Made by a program: the position numbers and the translations under genes
Source: Bacteroidota bacterium
GTDB lineage: Bacteria > Bacteroidota > Bacteroidia > Bacteroidales > CG2-30-32-10
Assembly (NCBI GenBank): GCA_013377115.1
Contig: JACAAW010000004.1
Coordinates: 2,521 to 66,520 of the forward strand
DNA length: 64,000 nt
Reading direction: 5' to 3'
The notes under the pieces: generated by a model
Seen by the model: only the letters and a program-made list of their open reading frames with translations
Told to the model about the DNA's origin: nothing
The model's database searches: none
Part shown: positions 2,697 to 53,909 of the stretch, one piece after another
Position numbering within the stretch: position 1 is the first letter of the stretch
Layout of the letters: every line of letters begins with the position of its first letter

Positions 2697-2814
2697 GTGA
2701 AAAATTATTGTATTTTAGAATATTGTTATTATTTTTACAGGCTAAATTGAGCAAATATTTTAATTCAACATTAGAATTTGTTAAATAATTAACACCCTAT
2801 TGGGATACTATATA

Positions 2815-3867
2815 ATGAAATCGCTTTTCTCACGTAATATATATGCAATAAATTTGATAGTAATTGCTATTATGCAATTACAAAATATTGCTTATGCTCA
2901 AAATGATTTAGGCAAAGACAATTTTCAAAATGGTGATATTAATTATGTCAAATATATTAACCAATTCCCATCTATAGATAAAGGAAAATCTTCAAATTTT
3001 TTCGAAAAAGTTACTGATTTTATAATTGGAGAAAAAGAAACTCCATTATTAATCAAGCCTATGTCAGTAATTGCAATAAACCCTGATTCTTTTCAAATAT
3101 TAGATCAAGGAAATGGATTGGTATTTCAAATACAAAATCAAGAAAGTGAAATTCCAAAGTTTTTTAAAAAACGAAAAGACAAATTAACTTCATTGGTTGG
3201 TATTTGCGAGAACTCAACAAAAGATGTGTTAATAACCGATTCTAAACTCAATAAAATTTTCAAAATTAGTGCTGATAAAAAATCGATTACTATTCTTAAT
3301 GATTCATTAAAACTAAATCAACCTACAGGAATTTCTTTTTCAAATACAACAAAGGAAATTTGGGTAGTTGAAACTGGGGCACACCAGATTTCAATTTTAG
3401 ATGAAAATGGTAACTTGAAGAAAACTATTGGTAAACGAGGAACCCAAAATAGTGAATTTAATTTTCCAACTTATTTAAGTTTTGACAAAAAAGGAAATGC
3501 CTATGTTGTTGATGCCATGAATTTTAGAATTCAAATTTTTGACAAATCGGGTAATTTTGTTTCCACATTTGGAGAAATCGGTGATGCTACTGGCTATTTT
3601 TCAAGACCAAAAGGAATTGCAATCGATTCGACTGGAAACATCTACATTGTTGATGCTCTGTTTAATACAGTGCAAATTTTTGACAATACTGGAGCCTTTT
3701 TATATCAATTTGGCAAACAAGGTCAGAATAAAGAAGAATTTTGGATGCCAACAGGCATTTTTATTGATAAAAAAGATTATATATATGTGGCAGATAGTTA
3801 TAATGCCAGAGTTCAAATATTTCAACATGTTTATGAAAAAGGAAATGAAAAAAGCATTAAAAATTAG
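2815..3867 (+). CDS. NHL-repeat beta-propeller protein (secreted)
   Basis: Repeated F..P.GI..D..GN.YVVD...RIQIFD units; signal peptide from ATG 2815 (track start is TTG 2800). Confidence 0.9.
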   Translation: MKSLFSRNIYAINLIVIAIMQLQNIAYAQNDLGKDNFQNGDINYVKYINQFPSIDKGKSSNFFEKVTDFIIGEKETPLLIKPMSVIAINPDSFQILDQGNGLVFQIQNQESEIPKFFKKRKDKLTSLVGICENSTKDVLITDSKLNKIFKISADKKSITILNDSLKLNQPTGISFSNTTKEIWVVETGAHQISILDENGNLKKTIGKRGTQNSEFNFPTYLSFDKKGNAYVVDAMNFRIQIFDKSGNFVSTFGEIGDATGYFSRPKGIAIDSTGNIYIVDALFNTVQIFDNTGAFLYQFGKQGQNKEEFWMPTGIFIDKKDYIYVADSYNARVQIFQHVYEKGNEKSIKN

Positions 3868-5545
3868 TATTGGTATTTTATTGGTAAGTGTATCATTTTT
3901 CAGTAATTCACAATCAATAGTTACAACAAAGCACAATTTATCAGTTTCAGGGACTGGTAGCGTTAAAGCTGTAACAGAATCTGAAATTTGCAAGTTTTGT
4001 CATACACCTCATATGGGTAGTCCGGCAGCACCATTATGGAATAGAACAATATCTGGAGCATCTTATACTTTATACAACAGTTCCACGATGAATGCTATTC
4101 CTGGTCAGCCTGACGGATCTTCAATATTATGTTTGTCATGCCATGATGGAACTATTGCTTTGGGAAGCATTATGAGTTCAGTTACTCCGATTGCAATGAC
4201 TGGTACAATGCAAAGAGGAAATCTGACAACAGATTTATCAAATGACCATCCGATTTCCTTTGTTTATAATGCATCTTTGGCTAGTACTGACGGACAATTA
4301 AAAACTCCTCCATTATCAACAATTCCACTTGACAATAATTCAAGAGTTCAGTGCACATCTTGCCACGATTCACACAAAAATTTATACACAAAGTTTTTAA
4401 GAGCTAGTAATGAATCTTCAGCTTTTTGTTTTTTATGTCATGATAGAACATATTGGGCTTCATCGACTCACAGCTCCTCAACAAGTACATGGAACGGAAC
4501 TGGAACAAATCCTTGGGGACACATGGAATTTCCATATTCAAACGTTTCAAAAAATGCTTGTGAAAATTGCCATGCACCTCACAATGCACAAGGAAAAAAT
4601 CGATTGTTAAAATCCATTACAGAAGAAGGCAATTGTTTGGATTGTCACAATGGCAATGTAGCAGCTTCAACCAAAAACTTGGTGAATCAATTTGCAAAAA
4701 CCTACAAGCATAATGTTGCAGGTTATATTAATATTCACGATCCAAATGAATCAAATTCAGTAACAACCCAACATGTTGAATGTGTTGATTGCCACAACGC
4801 ACATGCCTCAAATGCCACTACGGCGTCAGCTCCAAATATTAATGGATCAATGATTGGTGTTAAAGGAATTAATCAATCAGGAGTTGCCATTACATCAGCA
4901 AACTATGAATATGAAATTTGTTATAAATGCCATGCAGGAAACACCTGGTCTCCAGCATCAGCGACTTCAAGAGTTATTTCTCAAAACAATGTACGTCTTG
5001 AATTCGCAACAACGAATCCTTCTGGACACCCAGTTGCAGGTGCAAGAAACATCAGTGAAATAACGACCAATTTAATATCTCCAAATACTGCATCTACTGT
5101 GATTTACTGTACAGCATGTCATGCAAGCGATGGAGCTAGCTCTCCAGCAGGCCCTCATGGATCAATCTACCCTCAAATATTAAAATTACAATACTTGAAA
5201 AATGATGGTGCATCCTCAGCAAATGGGACAACAGAGTCGGCATCAGCGTATGCCCTTTGTTACAGCTGTCATAATAGAGCCAATATTATTAATAATGTTA
5301 GCACCTTCCCTGAACATAAATTACATATTGTAGATCAAAGAACTCCCTGCAATACTTGTCATGATCCTCATGGGATTAGCAGTACTCAGGGAACCTCTGC
5401 TAACAATTCAAACCTTATCAACTTCAGATCAGGTGTTGTAACGCCTGCAGGAACCTTATTAAGGTTTGTGGATACTGGAGTTAGACATGGTTATTGTCAA
5501 TTGGTTTGTCATGGTCAAACTCATGCTGCAAGTATGTTCTATTAA
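3845..5545 (+). CDS. Multiheme cytochrome c (11 CxxCH + 1 CX3CH) with N-terminal OmcE-like tetraheme domain
   Basis: Start reassigned to ATG 3845 (MKKALKISIGILLV, signal peptide); 11 CxxCH plus terminal CQLVCH; first ~200 aa colinear with 5904-6536. Confidence 0.92.
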   Translation: MKKALKISIGILLVSVSFFSNSQSIVTTKHNLSVSGTGSVKAVTESEICKFCHTPHMGSPAAPLWNRTISGASYTLYNSSTMNAIPGQPDGSSILCLSCHDGTIALGSIMSSVTPIAMTGTMQRGNLTTDLSNDHPISFVYNASLASTDGQLKTPPLSTIPLDNNSRVQCTSCHDSHKNLYTKFLRASNESSAFCFLCHDRTYWASSTHSSSTSTWNGTGTNPWGHMEFPYSNVSKNACENCHAPHNAQGKNRLLKSITEEGNCLDCHNGNVAASTKNLVNQFAKTYKHNVAGYINIHDPNESNSVTTQHVECVDCHNAHASNATTASAPNINGSMIGVKGINQSGVAITSANYEYEICYKCHAGNTWSPASATSRVISQNNVRLEFATTNPSGHPVAGARNISEITTNLISPNTASTVIYCTACHASDGASSPAGPHGSIYPQILKLQYLKNDGASSANGTTESASAYALCYSCHNRANIINNVSTFPEHKLHIVDQRTPCNTCHDPHGISSTQGTSANNSNLINFRSGVVTPAGTLLRFVDTGVRHGYCQLVCHGQTHAASMFY

Positions 5546-5903: not shown

Positions 5904-6536
5904 ATGAAACTAAAAAATTTATTTTTTGCAGTAACGCTTGTATTAGCTTTTACTCAAATGAGCTTTGCTCAAACTATTGTGGGTTCTGCTCATGATTTTT
6001 CTTCTCAAGCTTGGAATACTACTGGAGAAATTTGTATCGTATGTCATACTCCTCATGGTGCCATCACAACTGTTAGTAATGCTCCTTTATGGAATCACCA
6101 AGTAACTGCAACAGCTGCATTTACTCTTTATTCAGGATCAACCTTTAATGGTGCATCCACAATTACTCAACCAGATGCTAGCTCAAAATTATGTTTAAGC
6201 TGTCATGATGGTACTGTTGCTCTTCAAAACTTCAGCGGTACAACAGGTGCTGGTACTACAATTAGTTCTTTCTATAATGTTGGAACTAACTTAGCAAACG
6301 ATCACCCAATTTCTTTTGATTACAATGCAGCTTTAGTAGCAGCTGACGGTGGTGGATTAAAAGATCCAACAACTGCTTTAGGTATTGGAACTCAAACTAT
6401 TCAAAACTCTATGTTATTTTCTAACAAAATGCAATGTGCTTCTTGTCACGATGTTCACAACAGTGCAGGTATTGCTTTCTTATTATTAAAATCTAATGCT
6501 GCAAGTGCACTTTGTTTAACTTGCCATAATAAATAA
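5904..6536 (+). CDS. Tetraheme cytochrome c, OmcE-like (candidate nanowire subunit)
   Basis: Signal peptide; 4 CxxCH; motifs AHDFS, ICIVCHTPH, PLWN, FTLY, CLSCHDG, LANDHP, CASCHDVH, LCLTCHNK follow Geobacter OmcE in order and spacing as I recall it. Confidence 0.85.
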   Translation: MKLKNLFFAVTLVLAFTQMSFAQTIVGSAHDFSSQAWNTTGEICIVCHTPHGAITTVSNAPLWNHQVTATAAFTLYSGSTFNGASTITQPDASSKLCLSCHDGTVALQNFSGTTGAGTTISSFYNVGTNLANDHPISFDYNAALVAADGGGLKDPTTALGIGTQTIQNSMLFSNKMQCASCHDVHNSAGIAFLLLKSNAASALCLTCHNK

Positions 6537-6616: not shown

Positions 6617-7690
6617 ATGATGAATAAACTATATTATAATTTTCTTTTTATCGGAATTGCTTTAATTCTAACTTTCTCATCTTGTAATAAAAACGGTGTT
6701 CCGAAAAAAACAACAGATATTGTTATTTATCCTACCCCACCTGATACAGCTAGAATCCAATACCTAACTAGTATCAGTGATTCAAAAAATATTACTGGAA
6801 GACGAAATGCTTTTCTTAGATTTGTTTTAGGCGATTTTCAACCATATCCGTTGGTAAAACCATACGGAATTGCTGTTAAGAAAGGTAAAATATACATTTG
6901 TGATACTGGGTCCAATGGAATTACCATTATTGATTTAGCTAAAAAATCTTTAATCCCATTTTTCCCAAAAGGGAAAGGTCAATTAAAAGCCCCAATAAAT
7001 TGTTTCGTTGATGACAACGAGTATTTGTACGTTGCTGATGGCGAAAGACGTCAGGTTGTTGTTTTTGACAAAAAAGGTGAATATGTAAACGCATTTGGAG
7101 AAACAGAAAATTTTAAACCTACAGATGTTTTTGTAGTTAATGATAAAGTTTATGTTGTTAATTCCAAAAATAACAGAATAAATATTTATAAAAAAGGAAC
7201 TTTTGAATTACTATCTTTTTTCCCTGAGTCTGGACAAGGTAGTGAGGATTTTTTATATACTCCAGTTAATATTTATGTGAGCCCTGATAAAGTTTACGTA
7301 AGTGACATGGGAGACTTTAAAATAAAGAAATATACTCTTGAAGGAAAATATATTAACTCTGTTGGGAGTTATGGAAAAAATTTAGGCCAATTTGTTCGTC
7401 CAAAAGGAATTGCAGTTGATAAAGAAGAAAATCTTTTTGTTGTTGATGCAGGTTTTGAAAATACACAAATATTTGATAAACAAGATCGTTTATTAATGTA
7501 TTTTGGAGGTCCTTACAAAGCTCCTGGAGATATGTGGCTGCCAGCCAAAATTACACTTGACTATGAGAATCTTCAATATTTTCAAAAATATGTAGATCCA
7601 AGTTTTGAGCTAAAATATTTAATTTTCGTAACAAATCAATATGGTCCGGATAAAATTAGTGTATACGGAGCTGTTGGTCCAAAAAAATAA
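6617..7690 (+). CDS. NHL-repeat beta-propeller lipoprotein
   Basis: Lipobox LTFSS-C; NHL repeats (PYGIAV, PKGIAVDKEENLFVVD). Confidence 0.9.
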   Translation: MMNKLYYNFLFIGIALILTFSSCNKNGVPKKTTDIVIYPTPPDTARIQYLTSISDSKNITGRRNAFLRFVLGDFQPYPLVKPYGIAVKKGKIYICDTGSNGITIIDLAKKSLIPFFPKGKGQLKAPINCFVDDNEYLYVADGERRQVVVFDKKGEYVNAFGETENFKPTDVFVVNDKVYVVNSKNNRINIYKKGTFELLSFFPESGQGSEDFLYTPVNIYVSPDKVYVSDMGDFKIKKYTLEGKYINSVGSYGKNLGQFVRPKGIAVDKEENLFVVDAGFENTQIFDKQDRLLMYFGGPYKAPGDMWLPAKITLDYENLQYFQKYVDPSFELKYLIFVTNQYGPDKISVYGAVGPKK

Positions 7691-7700
7691 TTCATTTTAA

Positions 7701-8273
7701 ATGTTCAATAAAGTAAGATATCTCGTCTCCCTAATAACGATAGTAATGATTACTCTTATTATTGGGTGTTCTCCAAAAAGTAATTATAAATTACTTTCAA
7801 CAATGTTTGATGGGGTTCCGGATCCAAATAAAGTTGAATCTACCACCGGAGTAAAATCATCGGATAGTTTAAACGGCCAAAGTTTATCAAAAAAGAACAC
7901 TTCTGTGTCAAAAGTTATTCATCCACCTTATAAAGATAAAGGCTGTTCTAACTGTCATGAAAAAATAGATAATGTACCTTCCAGTAAATTAATAAAACCA
8001 CAATTAGAATTATGTTATTCTTGTCACGAAGATTTTTCTAAAAAGTTCACTTGGGTTCATGGGCCTGTTGCGGCTGGAAGTTGTACAAAATGTCATAGCC
8101 CACATGCTTCTGATTTCAAAAAATTACTATTAAAAGAAGGTCAGGCTTTATGCTTTACTTGTCATGATTCTAAAGATGTAATTAAAAATGAAGTTCACAA
8201 AGAAATTGGACAAACAAATTGTACAGAATGTCATAATCCTCATGGCGGAAGTGATAAAACTATTTTAAGATAA
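7701..8273 (+). CDS. Pentaheme cytochrome c lipoprotein (doubled-CXXCH type)
   Basis: Lipobox LIIG-C; FDGVP motif; 5 CxxCH (CSNCH, CYSCH, CTKCH, CFTCH, CTECH). Confidence 0.9.
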   Translation: MFNKVRYLVSLITIVMITLIIGCSPKSNYKLLSTMFDGVPDPNKVESTTGVKSSDSLNGQSLSKKNTSVSKVIHPPYKDKGCSNCHEKIDNVPSSKLIKPQLELCYSCHEDFSKKFTWVHGPVAAGSCTKCHSPHASDFKKLLLKEGQALCFTCHDSKDVIKNEVHKEIGQTNCTECHNPHGGSDKTILR

Positions 8274-8277
8274 CATT

Positions 8278-10245
8278 ATGAAGTATTATTTAAAAATATT
8301 TGTCGTAATTTATTTCATTCTTTTTGCCTCAATAGAATGTTTTTCGCAATATTCGACAGAAACTGTTCCATTCTTCAAACTTACATCATTAAATGGTGAA
8401 ATAAAGTTGAAAGGTCTTTATCGAGATCAAACTACTTATACCTATGGTTTAAAAAACACCCAAAAAAGCTCATTTTTATACGGAGGAATTATGGTGAAAA
8501 CACAAAGTTATTTGTGGACACCGAATTTCTTAGCTCTTGAAATCGACGGTGAATTCAATCCAGAAAAAAGGGAGGAAAAATATCTGATTATTCCAAATCA
8601 AGCTGAAGTAAATACCATGAGAAATATCCATATCAAAGGGACTTTCTTTCAGCAAAAGAAACTCAATTTAGGCTCTTATTTCAATTATGATGAAAACTAT
8701 AGCAGTAGAGAAAATTTGTCTAACTTGAGAACAAAAGGAAAAAGTTATGGAGCATTTTTAAATTATAGCAACAAATTTTTACCTTTTACGCTTAACTATA
8801 ATCAAAGTAATTTTATTCAGAAAGAAATTCAAACTGATAGAAATTTTATTTCAAATTCAACAGAAGTTGTTGGAAAATTCACCAAGTCCTTTTCAGGTAA
8901 AGATCGCCATGAACTTACAATTTCTCATAATGAATTTGATAGAAAAGACGCGGATTTCCTAAATATTAATAACAAAACAAATAGCGCTTATTTATCTGAT
9001 AATGTTTTCTTCGATAAGAAACAAAATTATTATTTTAATTCATTTATTTCTGCAATAGATCAAACTGGTTTTGATACTTACAGAAGGTACCAAGCAAATG
9101 AAAATTTCAATTTTAAACTTCCAAGAAAATTTAGTGTAATTGCTAATTACAGCTTTAACAGAAATGAAAGATTATTGCAAACTTTAAATCAACATAATGC
9201 AAATCTAACATTTGGAAAGAAATTTTACGAAAGTTTATATACTGGTGTTTTTTATGAATATAACAATGCTTCTCATACTTCCTATAAAGAGGAAATTCAT
9301 AAAGCCGGCATCGATTTAAATTACACTAAAAAACTTCCTACTAAAGGTTTATTAACTTTATCATATAGATATTACAGACAATTCCAAAACCACACAAGCG
9401 GAGATATTTTCTTAAATGTTATTAGAGAAGAATATACTTTAGCAGACGGACAATTTGTTTTATTAACAAAACCTTATGTTACACCAGGAACTGTTGTAGT
9501 TACTGATATTACAGGAACGATTATCTATCAGGAAAATTTAGATTATATTTTAATTAATCAAACAAATAATTTCACTGAAATTAAACGTATTCCTGGTGGT
9601 CTAATCCCAAACAATTCTATTGTTTACGTTGATTATATTGCAAAACAACCAGGAGCATATAACTTTGATGCTAGTAATCAAAACTTTGGTGCAAGCTTGA
9701 TGCTATTTAATAGACTCGTTGAAGTTTATTATAGATATTCAAGTCAGGATTACTTAACGATAAACCAAACCGAATATCTAACCTTAAATTATTTTCATCA
9801 AAATGTAGTTGGATTAAGAGCAGAGTACAAATTCGCGAGCGCAGGTGCCGAATATGATTATTACAATAGCAGTATTATCCCTTATAAATCAATGAGATAT
9901 TTTGCAGGACTTCAAGGCAATATTAAACAAAAATTTGCTTATTCATTAATCGGAAATTTACGTAACTACGAAATGATTAACGAGAATTTAACCCAAAGAT
10001 ATTCTGATGTTACAGGTTCAATAGCTTATTATATTAAAACAAAAAATAAAATCAAATTGGATGTAGGTTATATGAATCAAGTTGGGCAGGGAATAAATTT
10101 AGATTTGATAACTGCAAAAACGGAATTTACTACTTTCTACAGAAAACTATATTTTACTCTTGGGCTTGAATTTTATAAACGAACTTATCAAGGCGAAGAT
10201 TTAGATTTCAAAGGTGGATACGTTCAAATTTCAAGAAAATTTTAA
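8278..10245 (+). CDS. Predicted outer-membrane beta-barrel (porin of a porin-cytochrome conduit)
   Basis: Signal peptide; alternating aromatic/hydrophobic beta-strand pattern; C-terminal Phe (QISRKF); flanked by multiheme cytochrome genes. Confidence 0.75.
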   Translation: MKYYLKIFVVIYFILFASIECFSQYSTETVPFFKLTSLNGEIKLKGLYRDQTTYTYGLKNTQKSSFLYGGIMVKTQSYLWTPNFLALEIDGEFNPEKREEKYLIIPNQAEVNTMRNIHIKGTFFQQKKLNLGSYFNYDENYSSRENLSNLRTKGKSYGAFLNYSNKFLPFTLNYNQSNFIQKEIQTDRNFISNSTEVVGKFTKSFSGKDRHELTISHNEFDRKDADFLNINNKTNSAYLSDNVFFDKKQNYYFNSFISAIDQTGFDTYRRYQANENFNFKLPRKFSVIANYSFNRNERLLQTLNQHNANLTFGKKFYESLYTGVFYEYNNASHTSYKEEIHKAGIDLNYTKKLPTKGLLTLSYRYYRQFQNHTSGDIFLNVIREEYTLADGQFVLLTKPYVTPGTVVVTDITGTIIYQENLDYILINQTNNFTEIKRIPGGLIPNNSIVYVDYIAKQPGAYNFDASNQNFGASLMLFNRLVEVYYRYSSQDYLTINQTEYLTLNYFHQNVVGLRAEYKFASAGAEYDYYNSSIIPYKSMRYFAGLQGNIKQKFAYSLIGNLRNYEMINENLTQRYSDVTGSIAYYIKTKNKIKLDVGYMNQVGQGINLDLITAKTEFTTFYRKLYFTLGLEFYKRTYQGEDLDFKGGYVQISRKF

Positions 10246-10259
10246 TTTATTATTAACTC

Positions 10260-11129
10260 ATGATAGGATTTCAATTTAAGCTATTAATTTGGATTTTAGG
10301 ATTCAACTATTCTGTTGCAAACCAAGGTGATTTCAAAGTAGGAAAATGCTTGGATTGCCACGATGACAAGTTAAAACAAGCTGTTGTTCACCCTGTGGCT
10401 GAAGGTTGCGACAATTGCCATGTTGCAACAGGAAAAGAACATCCTGGAAGTGACAAAGGTTTTACTTTATCCCAAAAATTACCTGATTTATGCATTACTT
10501 GTCATCCTGATGCTATGGATGCCACAAAATCTCCTTTTTCGCATAAAGCACTTACTGAAAAAAAATCATGCGTTAATTGCCATTCACCTCATTCAACAAC
10601 CGAAAAAAAATTACTTCTAAAAGACGAAAAAACACTTTGTTTAAGTTGTCATAATAAATCAATTACCAGCGGCACGAAAAAGTATTCTAACATTAAACTT
10701 ATTGTAGAAAAAAGCAAATATGTTCATGCTGCAATTGAAAGTGGTTGTATTAGCTGTCATACTCCTCATGGATCAAAAACCGCTCAATTATTAAAAAATA
10801 ATTTCCCTGAAGGAAATTATGCCGATTCAAAAAAGGATAGCTATTCGATTTGTTTTAGCTGTCATGAACCAGGTTTATTAGAACTGGAAAAATCAACAGT
10901 TGCTACTAGCTTCAGAAATGGTGATAAAAACCTACACTTTATCCATTTAAAAGGACCTAAAGGCAGAAGTTGTAATTTATGCCACAATATGCATGGATCA
11001 AACAATGAGCATTTAATTGACGATTTTGTGAATTTTGGAAATTACAAATTGCCAATTAATTACAAACCTGAAAGTACAGGCGGTTCTTGTGCTCCAGGAT
11101 GTCATTCTGAGAAGAAATACGTTCGATAA
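10260..11129 (+). CDS. Periplasmic-type multiheme cytochrome c (8 CxxCH + 1 CX3CH)
   Basis: 8 CxxCH plus terminal CAPGCH; CxxCHxPH...LCxxCH pairs; N-terminal signal-like segment. Confidence 0.9.
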   Translation: MIGFQFKLLIWILGFNYSVANQGDFKVGKCLDCHDDKLKQAVVHPVAEGCDNCHVATGKEHPGSDKGFTLSQKLPDLCITCHPDAMDATKSPFSHKALTEKKSCVNCHSPHSTTEKKLLLKDEKTLCLSCHNKSITSGTKKYSNIKLIVEKSKYVHAAIESGCISCHTPHGSKTAQLLKNNFPEGNYADSKKDSYSICFSCHEPGLLELEKSTVATSFRNGDKNLHFIHLKGPKGRSCNLCHNMHGSNNEHLIDDFVNFGNYKLPINYKPESTGGSCAPGCHSEKKYVR

Positions 11130-11184: not shown

Positions 11185-11646
11185 TTACCCCTTTTCTTTA
11201 AAGTTTTTCCAGTATTCATTTCCATAACTGCAAAAGACTTCCTCACCTGCCAATATCTTTCTTTTTGCCACAATACAAACTTTTCCGTTTTCATTTAATG
11301 TAATCTTCGAATTGGCTTTAAATTTTGATTTCACAATACCTAGAGCATCATTTGCAAATTTTGCAAAGCATTTTACGTTCATGGAATCCATAATTGTACC
11401 GTCAGGCAAATTAATAAAATATCCATCTTCTCCTCTACTTGCTCTGGCATATGATTCCAAATCATTTAATATCTCGCCTTTAAACAAAGTAATTATTTCA
11501 TCCTTATATATCGGAATCATTGTAAATAAACCTTTGCCAGAACCATCAATTTGCGATTCGTTCACAAATAGATAATCGCTTTCTTTTGCTTCAATTTTAT
11601 AAGTAATTGAATTCGAAAACTTTTTTAAAGAAGGCGTATTTTTCAT
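11185..11646 (-). CDS. SET-domain protein (lysine methyltransferase family)
   Basis: GSGKGLF, FAKFAND and AKRKILAGEEVFCSYG..YW correspond to the SET motifs. Confidence 0.85.
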   Translation of the reverse strand: MKNTPSLKKFSNSITYKIEAKESDYLFVNESQIDGSGKGLFTMIPIYKDEIITLFKGEILNDLESYARASRGEDGYFINLPDGTIMDSMNVKCFAKFANDALGIVKSKFKANSKITLNENGKVCIVAKRKILAGEEVFCSYGNEYWKNFKEKG

Positions 11647-11717: not shown

Positions 11718-12425
11718 TTATTTTACAATTTTTCCTTCTTCAACAATTACTTTATAGAAATAACCGTATCCAAAATCTTTATCTAAAGCAACTTTTCCTT
11801 CAACTGTGATTACATCACCAACTTTTACTTCTAAATCAGTAGTAATAGTTAAATCAAAATCTTGACCATCTTTGGTTCCATCTTGTAAATGTATCCAATT
11901 TTTACTCATAATTGCCTGACTAAATTTTACAACTTCACCTTTAACTTTTACAGTTTTTCCGTTGTAATTTTTCTTGTTTTTGAACAATTCAGCAACAGTA
12001 ATTCCACCAGCAGCAGCTTCAACTTTAACTTCTTTTTGCTCCAATTTAGGTTTTGTTGGCTGCATTGAATTATTCATTTCATTTTGTTTTTCCTTTTTTT
12101 GGCCAGGAACAATTGGTTCATTGCTAACACTTTCCAAAAAGATAACTTTTGCAAAAGTTCTATTTAATTCTTTACTTTTGAAATCAACCATGTCCATTCC
12201 ATTTTCGTAATAATAAGTAGAACCCACTTTTGCATCCATCGAAGGAACAGCTAACCAATTCTCGATATCATCTTCTTTTACACGAAGATAAGTATACTCA
12301 GTAGTTTGAAGAACTTCTTGACAAACAACTTTATGAACTCCAGCAGCAACATCTTTTGAACTTTTATTTGACTGACAAGCTGTCATAAACATAACAACAG
12401 CAATTAGGCTAAAAATAATTCTCAT
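11718..12425 (-). CDS. NrfJ-like lipoprotein with C-terminal OB-fold domain
   Basis: Lipobox FMTA-C; YTYL...WLAVP...M.DFKSKELNRTF.K(V)IF resembles NrfJ; C-terminal KGEVVK...NWIHLQDG...GDVITVEG...DKDFGYGY. Confidence 0.65.
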   Translation of the reverse strand: MRIIFSLIAVVMFMTACQSNKSSKDVAAGVHKVVCQEVLQTTEYTYLRVKEDDIENWLAVPSMDAKVGSTYYYENGMDMVDFKSKELNRTFAKVIFLESVSNEPIVPGQKKEKQNEMNNSMQPTKPKLEQKEVKVEAAAGGITVAELFKNKKNYNGKTVKVKGEVVKFSQAIMSKNWIHLQDGTKDGQDFDLTITTDLEVKVGDVITVEGKVALDKDFGYGYFYKVIVEEGKIVK

Positions 12426-12910: not shown

Positions 12911-15900
12911 ATGAAAAAAATTTGGAATTTACTCACCTCATCAGCGCTTACTCTAATATTATTATTACTTTTTGCAATAGCAATTGGCGTTGCCACTTTT
13001 ATTGAAGATAAATTTGACACAATTACTGCCCAAACTTTAATTTACAAATCAAAATGGATGGAAATCTTATTGATTTTATTGGCTGTTAATTTTATTGGCC
13101 ATATTAACAGATACAAATTACTTAGTTATAAGAAATTAACTGGATTTATTTTTCATTTCGCTTTTGTATTGCTTATTGTAGGCGCAGGAGTTACCAGATA
13201 TAATGGATTTGAAGGTACCATGCACATCAGAGAAGGACAAACTTCAAGTGTTATTTACACTTCTAATGGATTTTTGCAAATAACCGCAAATGAAAATGGT
13301 AAAGAATACAAGAAAGATTATGAATTAGATTTAAGCCCATTCCTAAACAATTCCTTTAGTACAGAATTGAAAATTGAAAATAAAGGGTCTATTGATTTTG
13401 TTTATAAAAATTATATAAAGAATGCAGTTGAAGTTATTGAGGAAAACGCAGCCGGTGGCTCAAATATTATTGAACTATCCTTTGCTGTTGAAAACAATTT
13501 GCAAAAAATTTATTTAAAAAATGGCGAAGTAAAGGAAATTGGAAATGTTGCAGTTGCATACAATAACAATACTAGAAAAGATGCCATTAATATCACTGAT
13601 GATAAAAATGGCCTAAAATATTCTGCTCCTTTTGGCACTATAATTTCAAGCATGACCGAAGCCAAAACAGATACTGTTGCCAAAGATTCAACTGCCGCTT
13701 TTGTGGAGAATTATTTATATAAATCAGAGACCTTTATTTTCTCGTTTTCAAAATTTTATAGAAATGCAATCACAAAATTAAAACCTGCTGAGGAAGGTCA
13801 AGAAGGAATTGATGCTCTTTTATTAGATGTAAGCTATAACGGCGTTTCAAAAGAAATCACCGTTTTTGGTGGAGCAGCTTACTTACCTAATTTTAAAGAA
13901 GAAACAGTAAACGGAATGAAGTTTAAAATAGCTTTTGGAAATAAAGAAATTCCATTGCCTTTTTCAATTCAATTAAACAAATTTGTACTAGAAAGATATC
14001 CTGGATCAATGAGTCCTTCTTCATTCGCAAGCGAAGTTACTTTAGTTGATTCTGAGAAAAATATTAATGAGCCAAGAAGAATTTTTATGAATAATGTTTT
14101 AGATCATCGTGGTTTTAGATTTTTTCAATCTTCTTATGATACTGACCAAAAAGGAACCATCCTTTCTGTAAATCATGATTTTTGGGGTACCTGGATTTCG
14201 TATTTCGGTTATTTCCTTTTAACAATAGGATTTATCGTTACTTTATTTAATAAAAATTCCAGATTTGCCGCCTTGAGCGAAAATATTAAGAAGATTCGTG
14301 AAAAAAGAAAAGCCAGTGCTTTGACAGTTCTTTTTATTCTAGGATTTTCAGCATTTGGATTTTCACAAAACCCAAATACTGGAGGAAGAGCGGTTTCAAA
14401 GGAACAAGCTGATAAATTTGGTCATTTAATTGTTCAGACTTTTGACGGCCGATTTGAACCAATGCATACCATGGCTTATGATGTAATGCATAAAATTTCC
14501 AGAATGGATAATTTTACAGTTCAGGGAAAAGGAGAATTAGATGCTGTTCAAGTATTTATGGATATGATCCTTGATCAGGAATTTTGGAAATCACAAAAAA
14601 TGATTTATGTGAGAGAAAAATCTGTTCAGGACATTATTGGTGCAACTGATAAATATGCAGCTTTTAATGATTTTCTAGTGGATGGCAACAAATACAAACT
14701 TGCGGAATACGCAGAAGTTGCTTTCAGAAAAAAACAATCAGAGCAAAATACTTTTGATAAAGAAATTATTCGTGTTGATGAACGCGTAAATATTTGCATG
14801 ATGGCATTTCAAGGAAGTATGTTGAAAATATTCCCAGCTCAAAATTCCGAAACAAATCAGTGGGTATCTTGGGGAGATTCTTTGGCAAACAGGCCTATTA
14901 CTGGCGTTTTATCCGTAATAAATGAAGATCTTCAACTTAAACAATTCAATTTTTCAAATATTTTACAATTGTACTTCCAGAGAATTGCAGAAGGAAATGC
15001 TGATGGCAATTATACTGAAGCCGAAAAAGTTCTAAAATCAATTGAAACTATTCAAAAAAGTAGTCCTGTTGCTAATGCTCTACCAACAAAATCGAGAATT
15101 GACTTTGAAATTTATTATAACAAAGCCAAGATTTTCGAAAACCTAAGAAATGTTTATGGAATCTTAAGTTTAATTCTGTTAATCCTTGCTTTTGTTGAAA
15201 ATTTCAAAGCAAAGAAAAGCAAAATCCTTAGCATTGTTCTTAAAGTATTTATCGGAATTTTAGGTCTTGCTTTCATTTACCATACCTATGGAATGGGCTT
15301 AAGATGGTATCTATCTGGTCATGCACCCTGGAGCAACGGTTATGAAGCCTTATTACTCGTTGCTTGGGGAGGTTTACTTGCAGGATTCTATTTTGTAAAA
15401 TATTCAAAAATAACCCTGGCTGCCACAGCAGTGTTGGCTTTCTCAATTTTAATGACTGCTGGTCATAGTAGTTACGACCCACAACTCACAAATTTACAAC
15501 CAGTTTTAAAATCATATTGGTTAATCATTCACGTTGCTGCAATAACAATTAGTTATGGATTTTTAGGATTGGGTTTCATTTTAGGATTAATAAATATGTT
15601 TTTATATATTCTTAAAACCAAAAAATCAACCGAGCGTATTGATTTACTTATCGGCGAACTCACTTACATCAATGAAATGAATTTATCTATAGGAGTTGCT
15701 TTAGCCACTTTAGGAACTTTTCTTGGTGGTGTTTGGGCCAACGAATCATGGGGAAGATATTGGGGATGGGATGCAAAAGAAACCTGGGCCTTGGTGATAG
15801 TTATCGTTTACGCAATTGTACTTCATTTTAGATTAGTACCGAAACTAAAAAGCACTTTTGTTTTCAATGCTGCTTCTATTGCCAGTTTCGGAACTGTAAT

Positions 15901-16066
15901 AATGACCTTCGTTGGAGTTAATTATTATTTATCGAAAGGAATGCATAGTTATGCCGCTGGCGATACACCAGTTTTCCCAATTTGGGCATGGATTACGATA
16001 TTTTCAGTAATACTTTTGATGGTAGTTGCCGGAATTAGAGAAAAGATGTCTCAGAAGAATAAATAG
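12911..16066 (+). CDS. ccsA: Fused system II cytochrome c synthase CcsBA (ResB-ResC/NrfI-type)
   Basis: N-terminal TM helices, large periplasmic ResB-like region, GHAPW, W..IHV, and the WWD motif WANESWGRYWGWDAKETW. Confidence 0.93.
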   Translation: MKKIWNLLTSSALTLILLLLFAIAIGVATFIEDKFDTITAQTLIYKSKWMEILLILLAVNFIGHINRYKLLSYKKLTGFIFHFAFVLLIVGAGVTRYNGFEGTMHIREGQTSSVIYTSNGFLQITANENGKEYKKDYELDLSPFLNNSFSTELKIENKGSIDFVYKNYIKNAVEVIEENAAGGSNIIELSFAVENNLQKIYLKNGEVKEIGNVAVAYNNNTRKDAINITDDKNGLKYSAPFGTIISSMTEAKTDTVAKDSTAAFVENYLYKSETFIFSFSKFYRNAITKLKPAEEGQEGIDALLLDVSYNGVSKEITVFGGAAYLPNFKEETVNGMKFKIAFGNKEIPLPFSIQLNKFVLERYPGSMSPSSFASEVTLVDSEKNINEPRRIFMNNVLDHRGFRFFQSSYDTDQKGTILSVNHDFWGTWISYFGYFLLTIGFIVTLFNKNSRFAALSENIKKIREKRKASALTVLFILGFSAFGFSQNPNTGGRAVSKEQADKFGHLIVQTFDGRFEPMHTMAYDVMHKISRMDNFTVQGKGELDAVQVFMDMILDQEFWKSQKMIYVREKSVQDIIGATDKYAAFNDFLVDGNKYKLAEYAEVAFRKKQSEQNTFDKEIIRVDERVNICMMAFQGSMLKIFPAQNSETNQWVSWGDSLANRPITGVLSVINEDLQLKQFNFSNILQLYFQRIAEGNADGNYTEAEKVLKSIETIQKSSPVANALPTKSRIDFEIYYNKAKIFENLRNVYGILSLILLILAFVENFKAKKSKILSIVLKVFIGILGLAFIYHTYGMGLRWYLSGHAPWSNGYEALLLVAWGGLLAGFYFVKYSKITLAATAVLAFSILMTAGHSSYDPQLTNLQPVLKSYWLIIHVAAITISYGFLGLGFILGLINMFLYILKTKKSTERIDLLIGELTYINEMNLSIGVALATLGTFLGGVWANESWGRYWGWDAKETWALVIVIVYAIVLHFRLVPKLKSTFVFNAASIASFGTVIMTFVGVNYYLSKGMHSYAAGDTPVFPIWAWITIFSVILLMVVAGIREKMSQKNK

Positions 16067-47549: not shown

Positions 47550-50500
47550 ATGAAAAAAATTTACACCAATCTTACAAAAGTATTTTATACTATATTAATG
47601 ATAGTATTCGTTTTTACTTTTTCTACTATTAGCAAGGAAGTTAAAGGGCAAACCGTCATAACAATATCAACAACTGGTTCTTGGACCGTGCCTATTGGAG
47701 TAACTTCAATAACTGTTTCTGTTTATGGAGCAGGTGGGGGAAGTGGTGGAGCAAAAGGAGCCACTAATGACAATGCAAGTGGCGGAGGTGGCGGAGGTGC
47801 TTGTGCTATTTCAAATTTAACTGTAAGTGCCGGGCAAGTTTACACTGTAACAATTGGTAATGGTGGAACAGCTGGTGCAAATACTGGAACAAATGGTGGC
47901 ACTGGAGGTACTTCCTCATTTGTTGGGACAGGAGGAACTGTTTCGGCAAATGGTGGCGGAGGTGGCGGAGGTGTCGCGGTTACAACTGGCGCAGCGGGAA
48001 CAGCTGGTTTAGGCGCAACCATTGGGGTAGGAACAACGATTAGATTTGGAGGAAATGGAACAACCGGTTTTAGAACTACCACAAATGAAGTTGGTGGTGC
48101 TGGAGGCGGAGGAGCTGGAAATGCTGGAAATGGAGGAAATGGTTCTGGTGCTACCGGTATTAATTCTACTGGCGGTGCTAGTGGACTTGGAAGTCCAACA
48201 GGAGCGCCTTTTGCTGGGGCTTTGGGGCAAGGAGCAACTCTTACAGCTGGCTCATTAGCAGGTGTGGCAGGTGTGGCTCCAGGTGGAGGCGCTGCAGGAT
48301 GTGCTACTTATACTACTGCTGCTGTAGGTGCTATTGGAGGAAAGGGCCAAGTAGTTATTACATATACCATTGCAACTCCTCCTTGTTCAGGCACACCAAA
48401 TTCAGGTACAGCAACCATTACTTCTTCCACAGGCTGCGCAAGCACTAATTTCACCTTAAATACTTCAGGCTTATCCACAGGTACAGGAATTAGTTATTTA
48501 TGGGAATCATCTCCAAATAATTCTACATGGTCAAGTACAGGTATTACAACAGCTTCTTATACCTCCTCAACTGCAACTACCATGTATTATCGTTTAAAAA
48601 CAACTTGTTCGGGTAGTGGATTAAGTAATTACACAAATGTTGTTTCGTATACTGTGGTAGCTTGTACTAATGTTCCCTCTACAGGTTCTAATTCCGTTGC
48701 CTGCGGAACAAATACTATGTTATATGATAATGGTGGTTCAGCTGGGAATTATATTGCCAGTTCAAATGGTTATACAGTTTTCAATAATACTTCAGGCTCA
48801 ACTGGTGTAATATCAATTTCTGGAACTTACGGTTATGTTGAAACAAATTATGATTATATTCGAATTTATAGTGGAGCAGGAACCGGTGGTACCTTATTAT
48901 ATACTTATTCAAATACTGCAGGTGGAACAATTACGCCATTTAGCAGTGCTGCAGGTGAAACAATTACAGTTCAATTTACCTCTGATGGTTCTGGACAAGG
49001 CGCAGGATTTGCAATTTTAGCAACGTATTCAGGTTCCTGTTCACCTCCTCCAGCAGCTTATCAAGCTTCTTTTACTGCCATGAACACTGGTTCGTCAACC
49101 TGGTGTGCTGGTGAAGTTAGAAATGTAACAGTTACAGTTACCAATACCGGTACTGCCACGTGGACAGATGCAGGTCCTGATATTAATATTGGTTGTAAAT
49201 GGAATGCAGAATCAGATTATTTTGTTAGAGCTGATGCAAATAATTTAGCTCCTGGCGCCTCGGCTACATATACATTTGCAATGACAGCACCATTAACCGC
49301 TGGTTCTGAAAATCTTTCCTTCAATGTTGTTTATGAAGGATGTTTCTGGTTTTCTGCTAATCCGGGTAGTATTTGTGGAACCACTTGTTCAGGAAATTCT
49401 GTTTATACTTCAGGCACTCAAACTATAAGTGCTTGCGAAAAGATTGTTCCCTCTTCTGGAAGCAATAGCTACACTCTCTGCAGTGGTAATTTATATGATT
49501 ATGGAGGATCAGCCGGTAACTATTCCGTGAGTACTGATGGATATACCGTTTTATATCCGAGTGTGGGTGGAAATGTGATTCAAATTGCTGGCTTAAGTAG
49601 TGCTGGAGAATCTTGTTGTGATTATGTTCAAGTGTATAATGGTGTTGGTACAGGTGGAACTTTACTTGGCACATATAACATGGGTACCGTTGTTCCTACA
49701 CTTACGTCTTCTGACGCAAGCGGAGCATTGACCATTAGATTTTATTCAGATGTATCTGTAGTAGGAGCAGGATTTAATATAGCGGTAAGCTGCGTAGCTC
49801 CATGTGTTACCCCAGGCACACCAGTAAGTTTATCTGGTTCGGCAACTGGCTCTTCAACGGCAAATATTGGATGGGCTGCCGGTTCACCAGCTGGGTCAGC
49901 AACTGTTTCTTATTACTGGACAGTATACACAGCAGGCGGAGTTGTTGTTACATCGGGAAATACAACCAGTACTTCGGCTGCAATTAGTGGTTTAACATGC
50001 AGCACTACTTATTATTTTACCGTTTATTCAAAAACCAGTTGTAATAATACCCAATCATCAGCAGCAACAAGTGGCAATTTTACAACCTCAGCAATGCCTT
50101 CGCCAACAGCGGTAACCGCAAATCCTGCAGCAATTACTTGCAGTGGATCTGCAAATTTAAATGCAACATCCTCTGGAAACACAATTAATTGGTATACGGC
50201 TTCAACAGGTGGAACTTCAATTGGAAGCAGCGCAAGTGGTGTTGATTTTTCTGTTTCACCAGCAAATACTACCACTTATTATGCTGAAGCAAATTCACCT
50301 ATTGTTTATTCAAATATTTTAGGGAATGCTGTTCATAATAACACTTTTTCAGGCTCTTATACTTTAGGATATTCATTCACTCCAAGTTCGAACTTAACAG
50401 TATCCGCAGTTCGCAGTTATTTTGGTTCAAAAGTAACAATTTGGGATAATACAGGTGTATTAATCACAAGCCAAGCAGTAAGTGGTGCAAGTGCAACATG

Positions 50501-53500: not shown

Positions 53501-53909
53501 TGCTGGCAATAGCAATCATCCAATTAATTACTTATTCACTGACAGAAATTCAGTAAATGGAAAATCATATTATAGATTAAAACAAACTGATTTTGATGGA
53601 AAATTCACATATTCTACGGCAGCCGCAGTTGATTGCGGATCTGAATCTTCGGCAGAAATTATTGCTTATCCAAATCCTGCAGAACACAATGTTTATTTCC
53701 ATATTCTTTTACCTAAAAAGGAAAATGTGGTATTAAATATTTATGATGTAATTGGACAAAAAATTTATTCTGCTGAAATAAATGTTGATGGGGTTGTTAA
53801 TTACCAAGTAAATTTAGAGGAATTTGCTACAGGAAATTACAAATACTTGGTTATTGGCAAAACTCAAATTTTTAACGGACAGTTTGTGAAGGTGGGGGTT
53901 AACAAATAA
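47550..53909 (+). CDS. Giant modular T9SS-secreted adhesin-like protein (Gly-rich domains, CUB-like, FnIII, Ig-like, type-A CTD)
   Basis: Signal peptide; two Gly-rich blocks; DNGGS.GNY...F.SD CUB-like repeats; NWYT.STGG Ig repeats; PLPISLSKF...WTTASETNN...YPNP CTD region. Confidence 0.9.
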   Translation: MKKIYTNLTKVFYTILMIVFVFTFSTISKEVKGQTVITISTTGSWTVPIGVTSITVSVYGAGGGSGGAKGATNDNASGGGGGGACAISNLTVSAGQVYTVTIGNGGTAGANTGTNGGTGGTSSFVGTGGTVSANGGGGGGGVAVTTGAAGTAGLGATIGVGTTIRFGGNGTTGFRTTTNEVGGAGGGGAGNAGNGGNGSGATGINSTGGASGLGSPTGAPFAGALGQGATLTAGSLAGVAGVAPGGGAAGCATYTTAAVGAIGGKGQVVITYTIATPPCSGTPNSGTATITSSTGCASTNFTLNTSGLSTGTGISYLWESSPNNSTWSSTGITTASYTSSTATTMYYRLKTTCSGSGLSNYTNVVSYTVVACTNVPSTGSNSVACGTNTMLYDNGGSAGNYIASSNGYTVFNNTSGSTGVISISGTYGYVETNYDYIRIYSGAGTGGTLLYTYSNTAGGTITPFSSAAGETITVQFTSDGSGQGAGFAILATYSGSCSPPPAAYQASFTAMNTGSSTWCAGEVRNVTVTVTNTGTATWTDAGPDINIGCKWNAESDYFVRADANNLAPGASATYTFAMTAPLTAGSENLSFNVVYEGCFWFSANPGSICGTTCSGNSVYTSGTQTISACEKIVPSSGSNSYTLCSGNLYDYGGSAGNYSVSTDGYTVLYPSVGGNVIQIAGLSSAGESCCDYVQVYNGVGTGGTLLGTYNMGTVVPTLTSSDASGALTIRFYSDVSVVGAGFNIAVSCVAPCVTPGTPVSLSGSATGSSTANIGWAAGSPAGSATVSYYWTVYTAGGVVVTSGNTTSTSAAISGLTCSTTYYFTVYSKTSCNNTQSSAATSGNFTTSAMPSPTAVTANPAAITCSGSANLNATSSGNTINWYTASTGGTSIGSSASGVDFSVSPANTTTYYAEANSPIVYSNILGNAVHNNTFSGSYTLGYSFTPSSNLTVSAVRSYFGSKVTIWDNTGVLITSQAVSGASATWTQTALASPIILTAGVTYRIGIFTNGGNYYWNSTPASSIFTNGVMNAAYESSGDVFPTGTSTPQWWLVDIVYSVGTGCVSSRVPVSVTVNPFSAPSSATASSSAICPGGTSQISAISTGNTINWYTTSTGGTSIGSSASGANYAVSPGGTTTYYAEAQSISAGTQTFNYTGSIVNWTVPAGITSVNITAKGASGGYVSGSTAGNGSTMSGTFATVPGQIFSILVGQSPGLTTLYPAGGGGTYVGLGSSNTTATPLIVAGGGGAGYGGYTGLSAGITVDATGTSPGTGGNGAPAGGCTGGGGGFYSSGGTDTYYGFTGGAGFQQGGTGGQASVTYIASYQVGGFGGGAPADYVGSCNQFAGNGGGYNGGSAFSTSTGYIGNAGGSYNGGTSQSNTAGNNVGNGQVIITWSGAGGCVSATRTPVTVTINPLPVVTTQPAATAICENAAGQFTVATSTSGSTYQWQYSGNNSIWTNTNGNAGVTGDNSATLYLDAPPVSWNGLYMHCIITSAAGCSITSNSAVMTINPLPVVNAGLDQTICPGNSAFINASQSVAGTVSWTSSPAGFTSSIINPSVYPNVTTTYTLTSILNGCSGADQVVVNVNNPSISAPTPLTTGDYVWHGSQTNDWTAINDWLVYDGNNYVIPAALPNANSNVFIRAANASCGAANPCTTPTLTIDICKNLTIEAGQTLTLGAGSTLNVSGNWTNYGTLISTTGIVNFNGTQAQTILSGGSNFYDAIFNNTTSGNSDIILSDLMTISNTGTFNNGIVNFINSGGLTFTEGATCPNGGSATSFVNTSGSNYVSKIGTNGFIFPVGEISIAGLPIWAPIEMTAPAASSTITADYNFSASPHNLDPAFMCDANIITHTSGIEHWMMTTTLSTPDLTLYWKDGNRSGINSLTDLKVAHFEDCSGTDKWVSKGGNISGTLTNGYITSTIPFTNYSPVTFGSLTTPLPISLSKFTANCFEKGVDVNWTTASETNNNYFTIERSTDANSWEIIETINGAGNSNHPINYLFTDRNSVNGKSYYRLKQTDFDGKFTYSTAAAVDCGSESSAEIIAYPNPAEHNVYFHILLPKKENVVLNIYDVIGQKIYSAEINVDGVVNYQVNLEEFATGNYKYLVIGKTQIFNGQFVKVGVNK

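What the first reader, a model, noticed from the sequence alone, without database searches (positions are those of the whole stretch)
7701..11129. Cytochrome-barrel-cytochrome conduit whose barrel has an inserted soluble domain
Seen: 5-heme lipoprotein, 655-aa barrel and 9-heme cytochrome separated by only 4 and 14 bp. Around 9415-9650 the barrel strands are interrupted by a ~75-aa segment (YTLADGQ...VVVTDITGTIIYQENLDY...IKRIPGGLIPNNSIVYVDY) that looks like a beta-sandwich rather than membrane strands. Established: porin-cytochrome triads span the OM. Inference: the insert could be a plug or docking domain, and the barrel might also export or anchor filament subunits in an usher-like way.
Basis: partly seen in the sequence, partly recalled or inferred. 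Interest (0 to 1): 0.68.

Follow-up and report, generated by a model that had tools for sequence, protein, structure and literature searches.

The report
Nanowire-cluster outer-membrane barrel with periplasmic domain
This is the large outer-membrane barrel that travels with OmcE-type "cytochrome nanowire" genes, found here in a Bacteroidota genome. Its odd "insert" is a small folded domain shared by the whole barrel family, and it probably faces the periplasm, which gives a handle for testing how such wires are mounted.

Summary
The window encodes a 5-haem lipoprotein (7701-8273), a 655-aa barrel (8278-10245) and a 9-haem cytochrome (10260-11129), separated by 4 and 14 bp.

- **Barrel:** AlphaFold2 (pLDDT 89) gives 30 long strands, with a compact beta-domain (residues 389-446) between strands 18 and 19.
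- **The insert is not a local insertion.** It is the most conserved part of a large barrel family with no match in the Pfam or NCBIfam copies held here (2,326 representative clusters). It sits at the same position in relatives from Nitrospirota, Desulfobacterales, Proteobacteria and Elusimicrobia.
- **Side of the membrane:** strand parity puts it on the periplasmic side.
- **Fold:** modelled alone (pLDDT 94), it resembles a small domain of phage baseplate and tail proteins, not an usher plug.
- **Context:** in 21 related loci the barrel travels with an OmcE-like tetrahaem, NHL propellers, a lipoprotein cytochrome and a 12-haem cytochrome. This is the published OmcE/Uet cluster, whose barrel is already proposed as a pore or anchor. 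The downstream cytochrome is dispensable.
- **Open:** I could not get model coordinates, so plug versus docking site is undecided. I favour a docking site for periplasm-facing lipoproteins.

This is a new member of a known kind, with a previously unremarked family hallmark.

The parts
8278..10245 (+). 655-aa outer-membrane beta-barrel with a predicted 30 strands. It has a signal peptide and a C-terminal RKF beta-signal. It belongs to a large family with no match in the Pfam or NCBIfam copies held here.
   Evidence: no Pfam or NCBIfam hit; AF2 pLDDT 89.1, 30 DSSP strands; Foldseek finds only generic large barrels; 2,326 representative clusters; amphipathic strands; estimated C-alpha diameter about 53-55 A.
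9442..9615 (+). Core of the inserted beta-domain (barrel residues 389-446), between strands 18 and 19. It is the family hallmark and is predicted to lie at the periplasmic rim.
   Evidence: the most conserved part of the family: 59% versus 38% identity, and 28-40% versus 14-16% to the distant branch; present in distant homologues at the same position; pLDDT 94.4 when modelled alone; fold and PHROG matches to phage baseplate/tail domains.
7701..8273 (+). 5-haem lipoprotein cytochrome that is MtrA-like. It carries a conserved motif (TMFDGVPDP; FFFDGVP in relatives) 7-11 residues after the lipid-anchored Cys, and has no acidic residue right after the Cys.
   Evidence: 6r2q_A, E 1.7e-14; motif in all 15 intact N-termini; adjacent to the barrel in all loci except L004 and L005.
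10260..11129 (+). 9-haem (8 CXXCH plus CAPGCH) secreted cytochrome that is MtrA/DmsE-like. It is an accessory partner of the barrel, not a universal one.
   Evidence: TIGR03508, E 9e-21, below the family cutoff; 6r2q_A, E 3.7e-7; present next to the barrel in 13 loci; absent in L003, L004, L005, L012 and L015.
6617..7690 (+). NHL beta-propeller lipoprotein, encoded upstream of the barrel in nearly every related locus (directly, or with the small cytochrome in between).
   Evidence: NHL, DUF5128.
5904..6536 (+). OmcE-like tetrahaem cytochrome, the candidate filament subunit.
   Evidence: 9yuq, E 2e-28; 7tfs, E 1.7e-26, over the full length.
2800..5545 (+). Second NHL propeller (2800-3867) overlapping the start of a 12-haem cytochrome (about 3830-5545). 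This pair co-occurs with the barrel in 16 of 18 loci that have enough flank.
12911..16066 (+). Fused CcsBA (ResB-CcsA) cytochrome c maturation protein, conserved next to the cluster.

Best explanation
The 655-aa protein is the outer-membrane barrel of an OmcE-type extracellular cytochrome ('nanowire') module. This is the same kind of barrel as the 'large beta-barrel protein' of Desulfuromonadia omcE clusters and UetC of Tenderiales.

**Barrel.** It is predicted to be a single-chain barrel of about 30 strands with very short loops on both faces. Its estimated C-alpha diameter is about 5.3-5.5 nm, wider than the 26-strand MtrB.

**Domain.** Between strands 18 and 19 it carries a 58-residue beta-domain. 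By strand parity this connection is a periplasmic turn. The domain is the most conserved part of the whole family across phyla.

**Likely working (inferred).**
- The barrel gives MtrA-like cytochromes a path through the outer membrane. Candidates are the upstream lipoprotein cytochrome, the downstream 9-haem protein where present, and/or the C-terminal haem rod of the 12-haem OmcE-headed protein.
- It also mounts the OmcE-like filament at the surface.
- The periplasmic domain is the fixed docking point for the periplasm-facing lipoproteins that always accompany the barrel: the NHL propeller, and the small cytochrome with its conserved FFFDGVP anchor motif.

**Shown versus inferred.** Shown: the gene arrangement, family membership, strand count in the model, domain fold and conservation. 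Inferred: periplasmic location (from parity), which cytochrome occupies the lumen, and the docking role.
For: **Synteny.** In 21 related loci from Bacteroidota, Ignavibacteria, Calditrichota and Nitrospirota/Proteobacteria-type contigs, the barrel sits with an OmcE-like tetrahaem, NHL propellers, a lipoprotein cytochrome and a 12-haem cytochrome.

**Link to OmcE.** The 210-aa neighbour is a full-length OmcE homologue.

**Literature.**
- UetC is predicted to have 28 strands and a pore of about 5 nm (bioRxiv 10.1101/2022.05.06.490989).

**Structure and geometry.**
- The AF2 model has 30 long strands, 18 before and 12 after the domain.
- Most strands are amphipathic, and the geometry estimate gives 53-55 A.

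**Domain.**
- It is the best-conserved segment.
- It carries most of the detectable similarity to the distant branch.
- It is found in 316 of about 324 members.
- It folds confidently on its own.

**Flanking cytochromes.** Both best match MtrA of the MtrCAB structure.

**Lipoproteins.** Both lack acidic residues after the lipid Cys. By the published Bacteroidota lipoprotein export signal rule (my knowledge), this predicts that they face the periplasm, the same side as the domain.
Against: - No coordinates of the model were available, so I could not verify closure of the barrel, the lumen width, or whether the domain sits inside the lumen or below the rim.
- pTM of the full model is only 0.66.
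- Periplasmic location rests on counting DSSP strands in a predicted model.
- I could not obtain the Geobacter, Desulfuromonas or Tenderia barrel sequences. Homology to the published barrels is therefore inferred from identical cluster composition, not tested directly.
- The docking role is an inference from co-conservation only.
- The phage-type fold of the domain would equally suit a glycan-binding or generic protein-binding module.
Confidence: 0.6

Rival explanations
1. Usher-like translocon. The 30-strand barrel is mainly a secretion and assembly pore for folded, haem-loaded OmcE-like subunits. The beta-domain in the periplasmic turn is its plug or gate, topologically like the plug of FimD/PapC, which is also inserted in a periplasmic turn. 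On this reading the NHL propeller lipoproteins act as chaperones or caps.
For: - The barrel is conserved with OmcE-like genes even where no cytochrome gene flanks it (L004, L005).
- The estimated lumen is wider than MtrB and close to UetC's modelled 5 nm, so a folded ~20-kDa cytochrome could plausibly pass.
- A pore that wide should need a gate.
- The literature already favours a 'porin-like pathway' or secretion pore/anchor.
- Ushers do appear among the Foldseek hits of the whole barrel (FimD, TM 0.27-0.30).
Against: - There are no usher N- or C-terminal periplasmic domains; the barrel starts at residue 33 and ends at the C-terminus.
- There is no Usher Pfam hit.
- The domain core has only 58 residues, too small to close a ~4-5 nm lumen by itself.
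- Its fold matches phage baseplate/tail domains, and no usher plug appears in the top 50.
- The position of the domain relative to the lumen is unknown.
Confidence: 0.25
2. Plain porin-cytochrome (Mtr/Pcc-type) electron conduit. The 9-haem protein sits in the barrel like MtrA in MtrB, and the 5-haem lipoprotein is the surface partner like OmcB or MtrC. The domain is only a structural buttress, and the barrel has no role in filament assembly.
For: - The three genes are tightly spaced.
- Both cytochromes are MtrA-like (TIGR03508).
- MtrB is among the best whole-barrel Foldseek hits, with the highest TMq of 0.36.
Against: - The downstream cytochrome is absent in L003, L004, L005, L012 and L015, while OmcE-like, NHL and 12-haem genes remain.
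- The lipoprotein cytochrome lacks a Bacteroidota surface-export signal, and in the proteobacterial-type loci it has Asp at +2.
- There is no MtrB_PioB family match.
- Very strong conservation of the domain argues for a specific partner, not a buttress.
Confidence: 0.2
3. The domain is extracellular. It would be a surface-exposed adhesion or mineral/glycan-binding module of the barrel, like the decoration domains of phage tails that it resembles.
For: Fold and PHROG similarity to phage tail and baseplate decoration domains. Such domains often bind surfaces.
Against: - Strand parity: 18 strands lie before the domain and 12 after it. With the usual periplasmic N- and C-termini, this places it at a periplasmic turn.
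- Very high conservation is atypical for surface-exposed parts.
Confidence: 0.07

Closest known systems
Large beta-barrel protein of omcE nanowire gene clusters in Desulfuromonadia (Geobacter sulfurreducens, Desulfuromonas soudanensis; mBio 2026, PMC13712944)
   Same: The cluster parts list is the same: an OmcE-type tetrahaem, two beta-propeller (NHL) proteins, multihaem cytochromes, a large barrel, and adjacent ResB/CcsA-type maturation genes.
   Different: This one is in Bacteroidota, a phylum not among the five listed in that paper. There, by my sampling, the barrel is rare (3 of 401 genomes, own included). This cluster has an extra 9-haem and a 17-haem cytochrome and a fused CcsBA. The papers I could read do not mention the inserted periplasmic domain or the strand count. 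Direct sequence comparison was not possible.
UetC, the outer-membrane barrel of the uetABCDEFGHIJ cluster of Ca. Tenderia electrophaga / Tenderiales (bioRxiv 10.1101/2022.05.06.490989)
   Same: A very large barrel (28 strands predicted, about 5 nm pore) encoded with a tetrahaem (UetA), two NHL proteins, an undecahaem cytochrome and CcsAB. It is proposed to hold a cytochrome as MtrB holds MtrA.
   Different: The Uet cluster also has a PPIase, trihaem c7 proteins and a cupredoxin, which are absent here. It is proposed for electron uptake. My model counts 30 strands plus the domain. Homology to UetC was not tested here.
MtrCAB of Shewanella (PDB 6R2Q) and Geobacter porin-cytochrome (Pcc: OmaB/OmbB/OmcB, Ext) conduits
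   Same: A multihaem cytochrome gene sits on each side of an outer-membrane barrel gene. Both cytochromes are MtrA-like in sequence.
   Different: The barrel has no MtrB_PioB match. It has 30 strands rather than 26, and carries an inserted domain that MtrB lacks. The lipoprotein cytochrome probably faces the periplasm. The conserved partners are OmcE-like and NHL proteins rather than an MtrC/OmcA-type surface decahaem.
Chaperone-usher pilus ushers (FimD, PapC)
   Same: A large single-chain barrel with a small beta-domain inserted in a periplasmic turn. Both are associated with the assembly of a surface filament.
   Different: The usher has 24 strands plus N- and C-terminal periplasmic domains, which are absent here. 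There is no sequence match. The domain fold is different, and there is no periplasmic Ig-fold chaperone gene.
Small beta-domain of phage baseplate wedge gp6/J-like and tail proteins (T4 gp6 in PDB 5IV5; phrog_807, phrog_18315)
   Same: The fold of the inserted domain matches: TMq 0.66 to T4 gp6, and TMq 0.77 with rmsd 1.9 A to a predicted archaeal-virus protein. There is also weak but recurrent sequence similarity: 46-48 of 71 domain sequences hit these PHROGs, best E 1e-6.
   Different: Here the domain is embedded in a turn of a bacterial outer-membrane barrel and has no phage context. This is a shared module, not a shared function.

Membership tests
OmcE-cluster / Uet-type large outer-membrane barrel | Encoded in a cluster with an OmcE-type tetrahaem cytochrome | tested here: met
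   The 210-aa neighbour matches OmcE structures over its full length. An OmcE-like gene lies within 10 kb in nearly all related loci.
OmcE-cluster / Uet-type large outer-membrane barrel | Accompanied by two beta-propeller (NHL) proteins and at least two multihaem cytochromes | tested here: met
   Only one of the two NHL proteins here has a lipobox.
OmcE-cluster / Uet-type large outer-membrane barrel | Very large barrel (more strands than the 26 of MtrB) | tested here: met
   30 DSSP strands in an AF2 model of pLDDT 89. Closure was not checked, for lack of coordinates.
OmcE-cluster / Uet-type large outer-membrane barrel | Sequence homology to the barrels of G. sulfurreducens, D. soudanensis or Ca. 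Tenderia | not testable with these tools
   Those sequences could not be fetched. Homology to barrels in OmcE-type clusters of other phyla was shown.
MtrB/PioB outer-membrane porin (PF11854) | Match to the family profile | tested here: not met
   No Pfam or NCBIfam family at E <= 0.01. Foldseek to MtrB 6r2q_B gives TMq of only 0.36.
MtrB/PioB outer-membrane porin (PF11854) | A periplasmic decahaem (MtrA-type) threaded through the lumen | not testable with these tools
   The flanking cytochromes are MtrA-like, but no multimer prediction or coordinates were available.
Fimbrial usher (PF00577) | Family profile match; 24-strand barrel with N-terminal and two C-terminal periplasmic domains | tested here: not met
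   No hit. The barrel spans residues 33-654 with no terminal domains.
Fimbrial usher (PF00577) | Beta-sandwich plug domain inserted in a periplasmic turn and lying in the lumen | tested here: inconclusive
   The topological position (a periplasmic turn) is analogous. However, the fold gives no usher-plug match, and residence in the lumen is unknown.
Geobacter Pcc conduit (OmaB/OmbB/OmcB type) | Surface-exposed lipoprotein multihaem cytochrome as the outer partner | tested here: inconclusive
   A lipobox is present but no acidic export signal follows the Cys. Localisation cannot be decided from sequence.
Phage baseplate gp6/J-like and tail decoration beta-domain | Fold and profile similarity of the inserted domain | tested here: met
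   Foldseek TMq 0.66 (5iv5_A, E 0.02) and 0.77 (BFVD, E 2e-4). phrog_807 and phrog_18315 are hit by 46-48 of 71 sequences. There is no Pfam hit.

The most novel reading that the evidence does not exclude
The 30-strand barrel, its invariant periplasmic beta-domain and the NHL propeller lipoproteins together form a dedicated outer-membrane machine. It would export folded, haem-loaded cytochrome subunits and polymerise them at the surface. That would be a new filament-assembly pathway, comparable in logic to chaperone-usher pili. In it the domain would act as the gate or the receiver for incoming subunits.
Probability: 0.2. Interest if true: 0.85.

Novelty: new member of a known kind. Interest (0 to 1): 0.5.

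Why it matters
How cytochrome nanowires cross and attach to the outer membrane is an open question. The literature names the large barrel only as a putative pore or anchor.

This analysis shows that every member of the barrel family carries one small, highly conserved, independently folding domain at a defined turn, probably periplasmic. That gives experimenters a precise target. The domain can be deleted or mutated, or used as bait, to find what the barrel binds.

The result also extends OmcE-type modules to Bacteroidota, Ignavibacteria and Calditrichota, where they are rare and patchy.

Tried and rejected
**Sequence searches of the barrel**
- Pfam and NCBIfam scans found nothing.
- A search against PDB sequences found only chance hits.
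- A profile of the domain against PDB sequences found nothing significant.
- Pfam on the domain alone gave only noise.

**Foldseek of the full barrel**
- Only generic 22-26-strand barrels came back, with TM at most 0.36. This does not discriminate between MtrB, LptD, TonB-dependent transporters and ushers.

**Attempts to reach the Geobacter, Desulfuromonas or Tenderia barrels**
- Alignment-based genome scans failed or found nothing.
- The OmcE-like protein search returned only close relatives among 7,647 hits.
- The genome search cannot be centred on loci that are not held.
- Cluster look-ups gave no names.
- Shen et al. 2025 (OscEFG) and Wang et al. 2022 (OmcE) are not held in the paper library.
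- PF27730, which is attached to a few homologues, is not in the held Pfam copy.

**Readings rejected**
- An unrelated nutrient porin or TonB-type receptor (one homologue is annotated that way in NCBI). Synteny and the absence of a plug or TonB box profile rule this out.
- A lineage-specific insertion, which is contradicted.
Full report
**Observation**

- 7701-8273 encodes 190 aa with five CXXCH motifs and a lipobox, LIIGC.
- 8278-10245 encodes 655 aa with no haem motif and ends in RKF.
- 10260-11129 encodes 289 aa with eight CXXCH motifs plus a terminal CAPGCH.
- The gaps are 4 and 14 bp.

The window is about 31% G+C and carries several genes with T9SS sorting domains, so it is from Bacteroidota. 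It lies on contig C231 of a 4.0-Mb assembly that is 94% complete.

**The barrel**

The held Pfam and NCBIfam copies have no model for it, and it has no sequence relative in the PDB.

An AlphaFold2 model built on 38 homologues is confident (mean pLDDT 89.1, pTM 0.66). DSSP on the model gives 18 long strands (residues 33-388), then a segment of short strands, then 12 more long strands (447-654). That makes 30 strands in all. Every other connection is only 2-8 residues long, on both faces.

Most strands show the alternating hydrophobic/polar pattern of membrane strands. Standard barrel geometry for n = 30 gives a C-alpha diameter of about 53-55 A, against about 47 A for a 26-strand barrel such as MtrB.

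Foldseek against the PDB returns only generic large barrels: TonB-dependent receptors, MtrB, LptD and FimD. TM is at most 0.36, so no solved structure is a close model.

I had no access to the coordinates. Closure, true lumen width and the placement of the insert are therefore not verified.

**The insert**

Residues 389-446 are the only interruption of the meander, together with the extended ends of strands 18 and 19.

The insert is the best-conserved part of the family:
- Within the Bacteroidota-type set, identity is 59% in the domain against 38% in the rest of the barrel.
- Against the distant branch, it is 28-40% against 14-16%.
- BLASTP similarity to the three most distant homologues first found is centred on it.

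A profile of the segment finds it in 316 of about 324 barrels collected. It always lies about 195 residues from the C-terminus.

Modelled alone with 71 diverse sequences, it folds with pLDDT 94.4 and pTM 0.80.

Its fold matches a small beta-domain that recurs in phage baseplate wedge (gp6/J-like) and tail proteins:
- T4 gp6 (5iv5), TMq 0.66.
- A predicted archaeal-virus protein, TMq 0.77, rmsd 1.9 A, E 2e-4.
- PHROG profiles phrog_807 and phrog_18315, hit by 46-48 of the 71 sequences.

No usher plug appears among the top matches, and no Pfam family matches.

Eighteen strands precede the domain and twelve follow it. Outer-membrane barrels have periplasmic N- and C-termini. The domain therefore sits at a periplasmic turn, not in a surface loop. 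This is an inference from the model.

**Context**

- The 210-aa gene at 5904-6536 is a full-length OmcE homologue.
- Both cytochromes flanking the barrel have the MtrA chain of the MtrCAB structure as their best solved relative.
- I compared 21 related loci from Lutimonas, Aestuariivivens, Lutibacter, Vicingaceae, Bacteroidales, Ignavibacteriaceae, Calditrichota, a Desulfobacterales MAG, and unnamed contigs. The barrel branch that the unnamed contigs belong to includes proteins labelled Nitrospirota, Desulfobacterales, Beta/Gammaproteobacteria and Elusimicrobia. In these loci the barrel travels with an OmcE-like gene, an NHL lipoprotein, a lipoprotein cytochrome, and an NHL plus 12-haem pair.
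- The downstream cytochrome is present in 13 loci but absent in L003, L004, L005, L012 and L015. The 'triad' is therefore not the conserved unit.
- The family is large: 2,326 representative clusters at E <= 1e-3.
- It is rare in Bacteroidota: 3 of 401 sampled genomes, the window's own included.

**Literature**

[quoted passage not shown] It regards the barrel as a putative secretion pore or anchor. It lists five phyla, and Bacteroidota is not among them (PMC13712944).
- The uet cluster of Tenderiales has the same parts. Its barrel UetC was predicted to have 28 strands and a pore of about 5 nm.
- OscE, OscF and OscG are cited as required for OmcS secretion, but that paper is not held.
- None of the texts I could read mentions the inserted domain.

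**Mechanism**

The best-supported reading is that this is the outer-membrane barrel of an OmcE-type module. It would be wide enough to hold an MtrA-like haem rod and to mount the filament.

Three conserved elements are predicted to meet at the inner face of the outer membrane:
1. The barrel's domain.
2. The NHL lipoprotein.
3. The lipoprotein cytochrome.

The lipoprotein cytochrome's N-terminus carries a conserved FFFDGVP-type motif 7-11 residues after the lipid Cys, in all 15 intact sequences. Neither lipoprotein has the acidic export signal that Bacteroidota surface lipoproteins carry (my knowledge of the published rule; sequences).

I therefore favour a docking role for the domain. A gate or plug role in an usher-like translocon is the main rival. 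The 58-residue core seems too small to close a lumen of this size alone, but the point is untested.

**Verdict**

The system is a new member, in a new phylum, of a known but uncharacterised kind. The useful addition is a family-wide periplasmic domain that makes the pore-or-anchor hypothesis testable.

Noticed in passing
window 7767-7805 (residues 23-35 of the 190-aa protein); L001, L002, L003, L006-L013, L015, L016, L020: The upstream lipoprotein cytochrome has a conserved motif 7-11 residues after the lipobox Cys: [FM][FLI]F[DT]GVP, which reads TMFDGVPDP here. It appears in all 15 intact N-termini, from Bacteroidota to proteobacterial-type loci, although the haem number varies from 4 to 9. 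It is a possible anchor or docking peptide.
   Followed up: partly
L003 and L006 (upstream cytochrome N-termini): In the two non-Bacteroidota-type loci the lipoprotein cytochrome has Asp right after the lipid Cys (CDRR, CDSH). In E. coli this is an inner-membrane retention signal. It hints that this cytochrome is not a surface protein.
   Followed up: no
window 11185-11646 (-): A 153-aa SET-domain protein (PF00856, E 8e-10) lies between the cytochrome cluster and CcsBA. It is absent at this position in L001, L002 and L010, so it is probably unrelated.
   Followed up: no
window 11718-12425 (-); L001 13160-14634; L010 14184-16342: A 235-aa lipoprotein with no family match sits beside the fused CcsBA. 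It is conserved there in one to three tandem copies in relatives. Homologues also occur in L003 and L005.
   Followed up: no
window 10260-11129 and 3830-5545; L001, L002, L003-L005: The 9-haem and 12-haem cytochromes each end in a CX3CH site (CAPGCH, CQLVCH). This is conserved in homologues, next to a dedicated CcsBA.
   Followed up: no
homologues P0340, P0341, P0343, P0361: A few barrel homologues carry a precomputed hit to PF27730.1, a Pfam family newer than the held copy. The family may therefore already have a Pfam entry, whose name I could not read.
   Followed up: partly
window 47550-53909 and 55125-63998: Two very large ORFs (2,119 aa, and more than 2,958 aa running off the window) lie in a stretch of higher G+C (0.40-0.43, against about 0.31 elsewhere).
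   Followed up: no
G000:C231:1032-1088, C157, C222: Further multihaem cytochrome genes lie just upstream of the window start and on two other contigs of the same genome.
   Followed up: no
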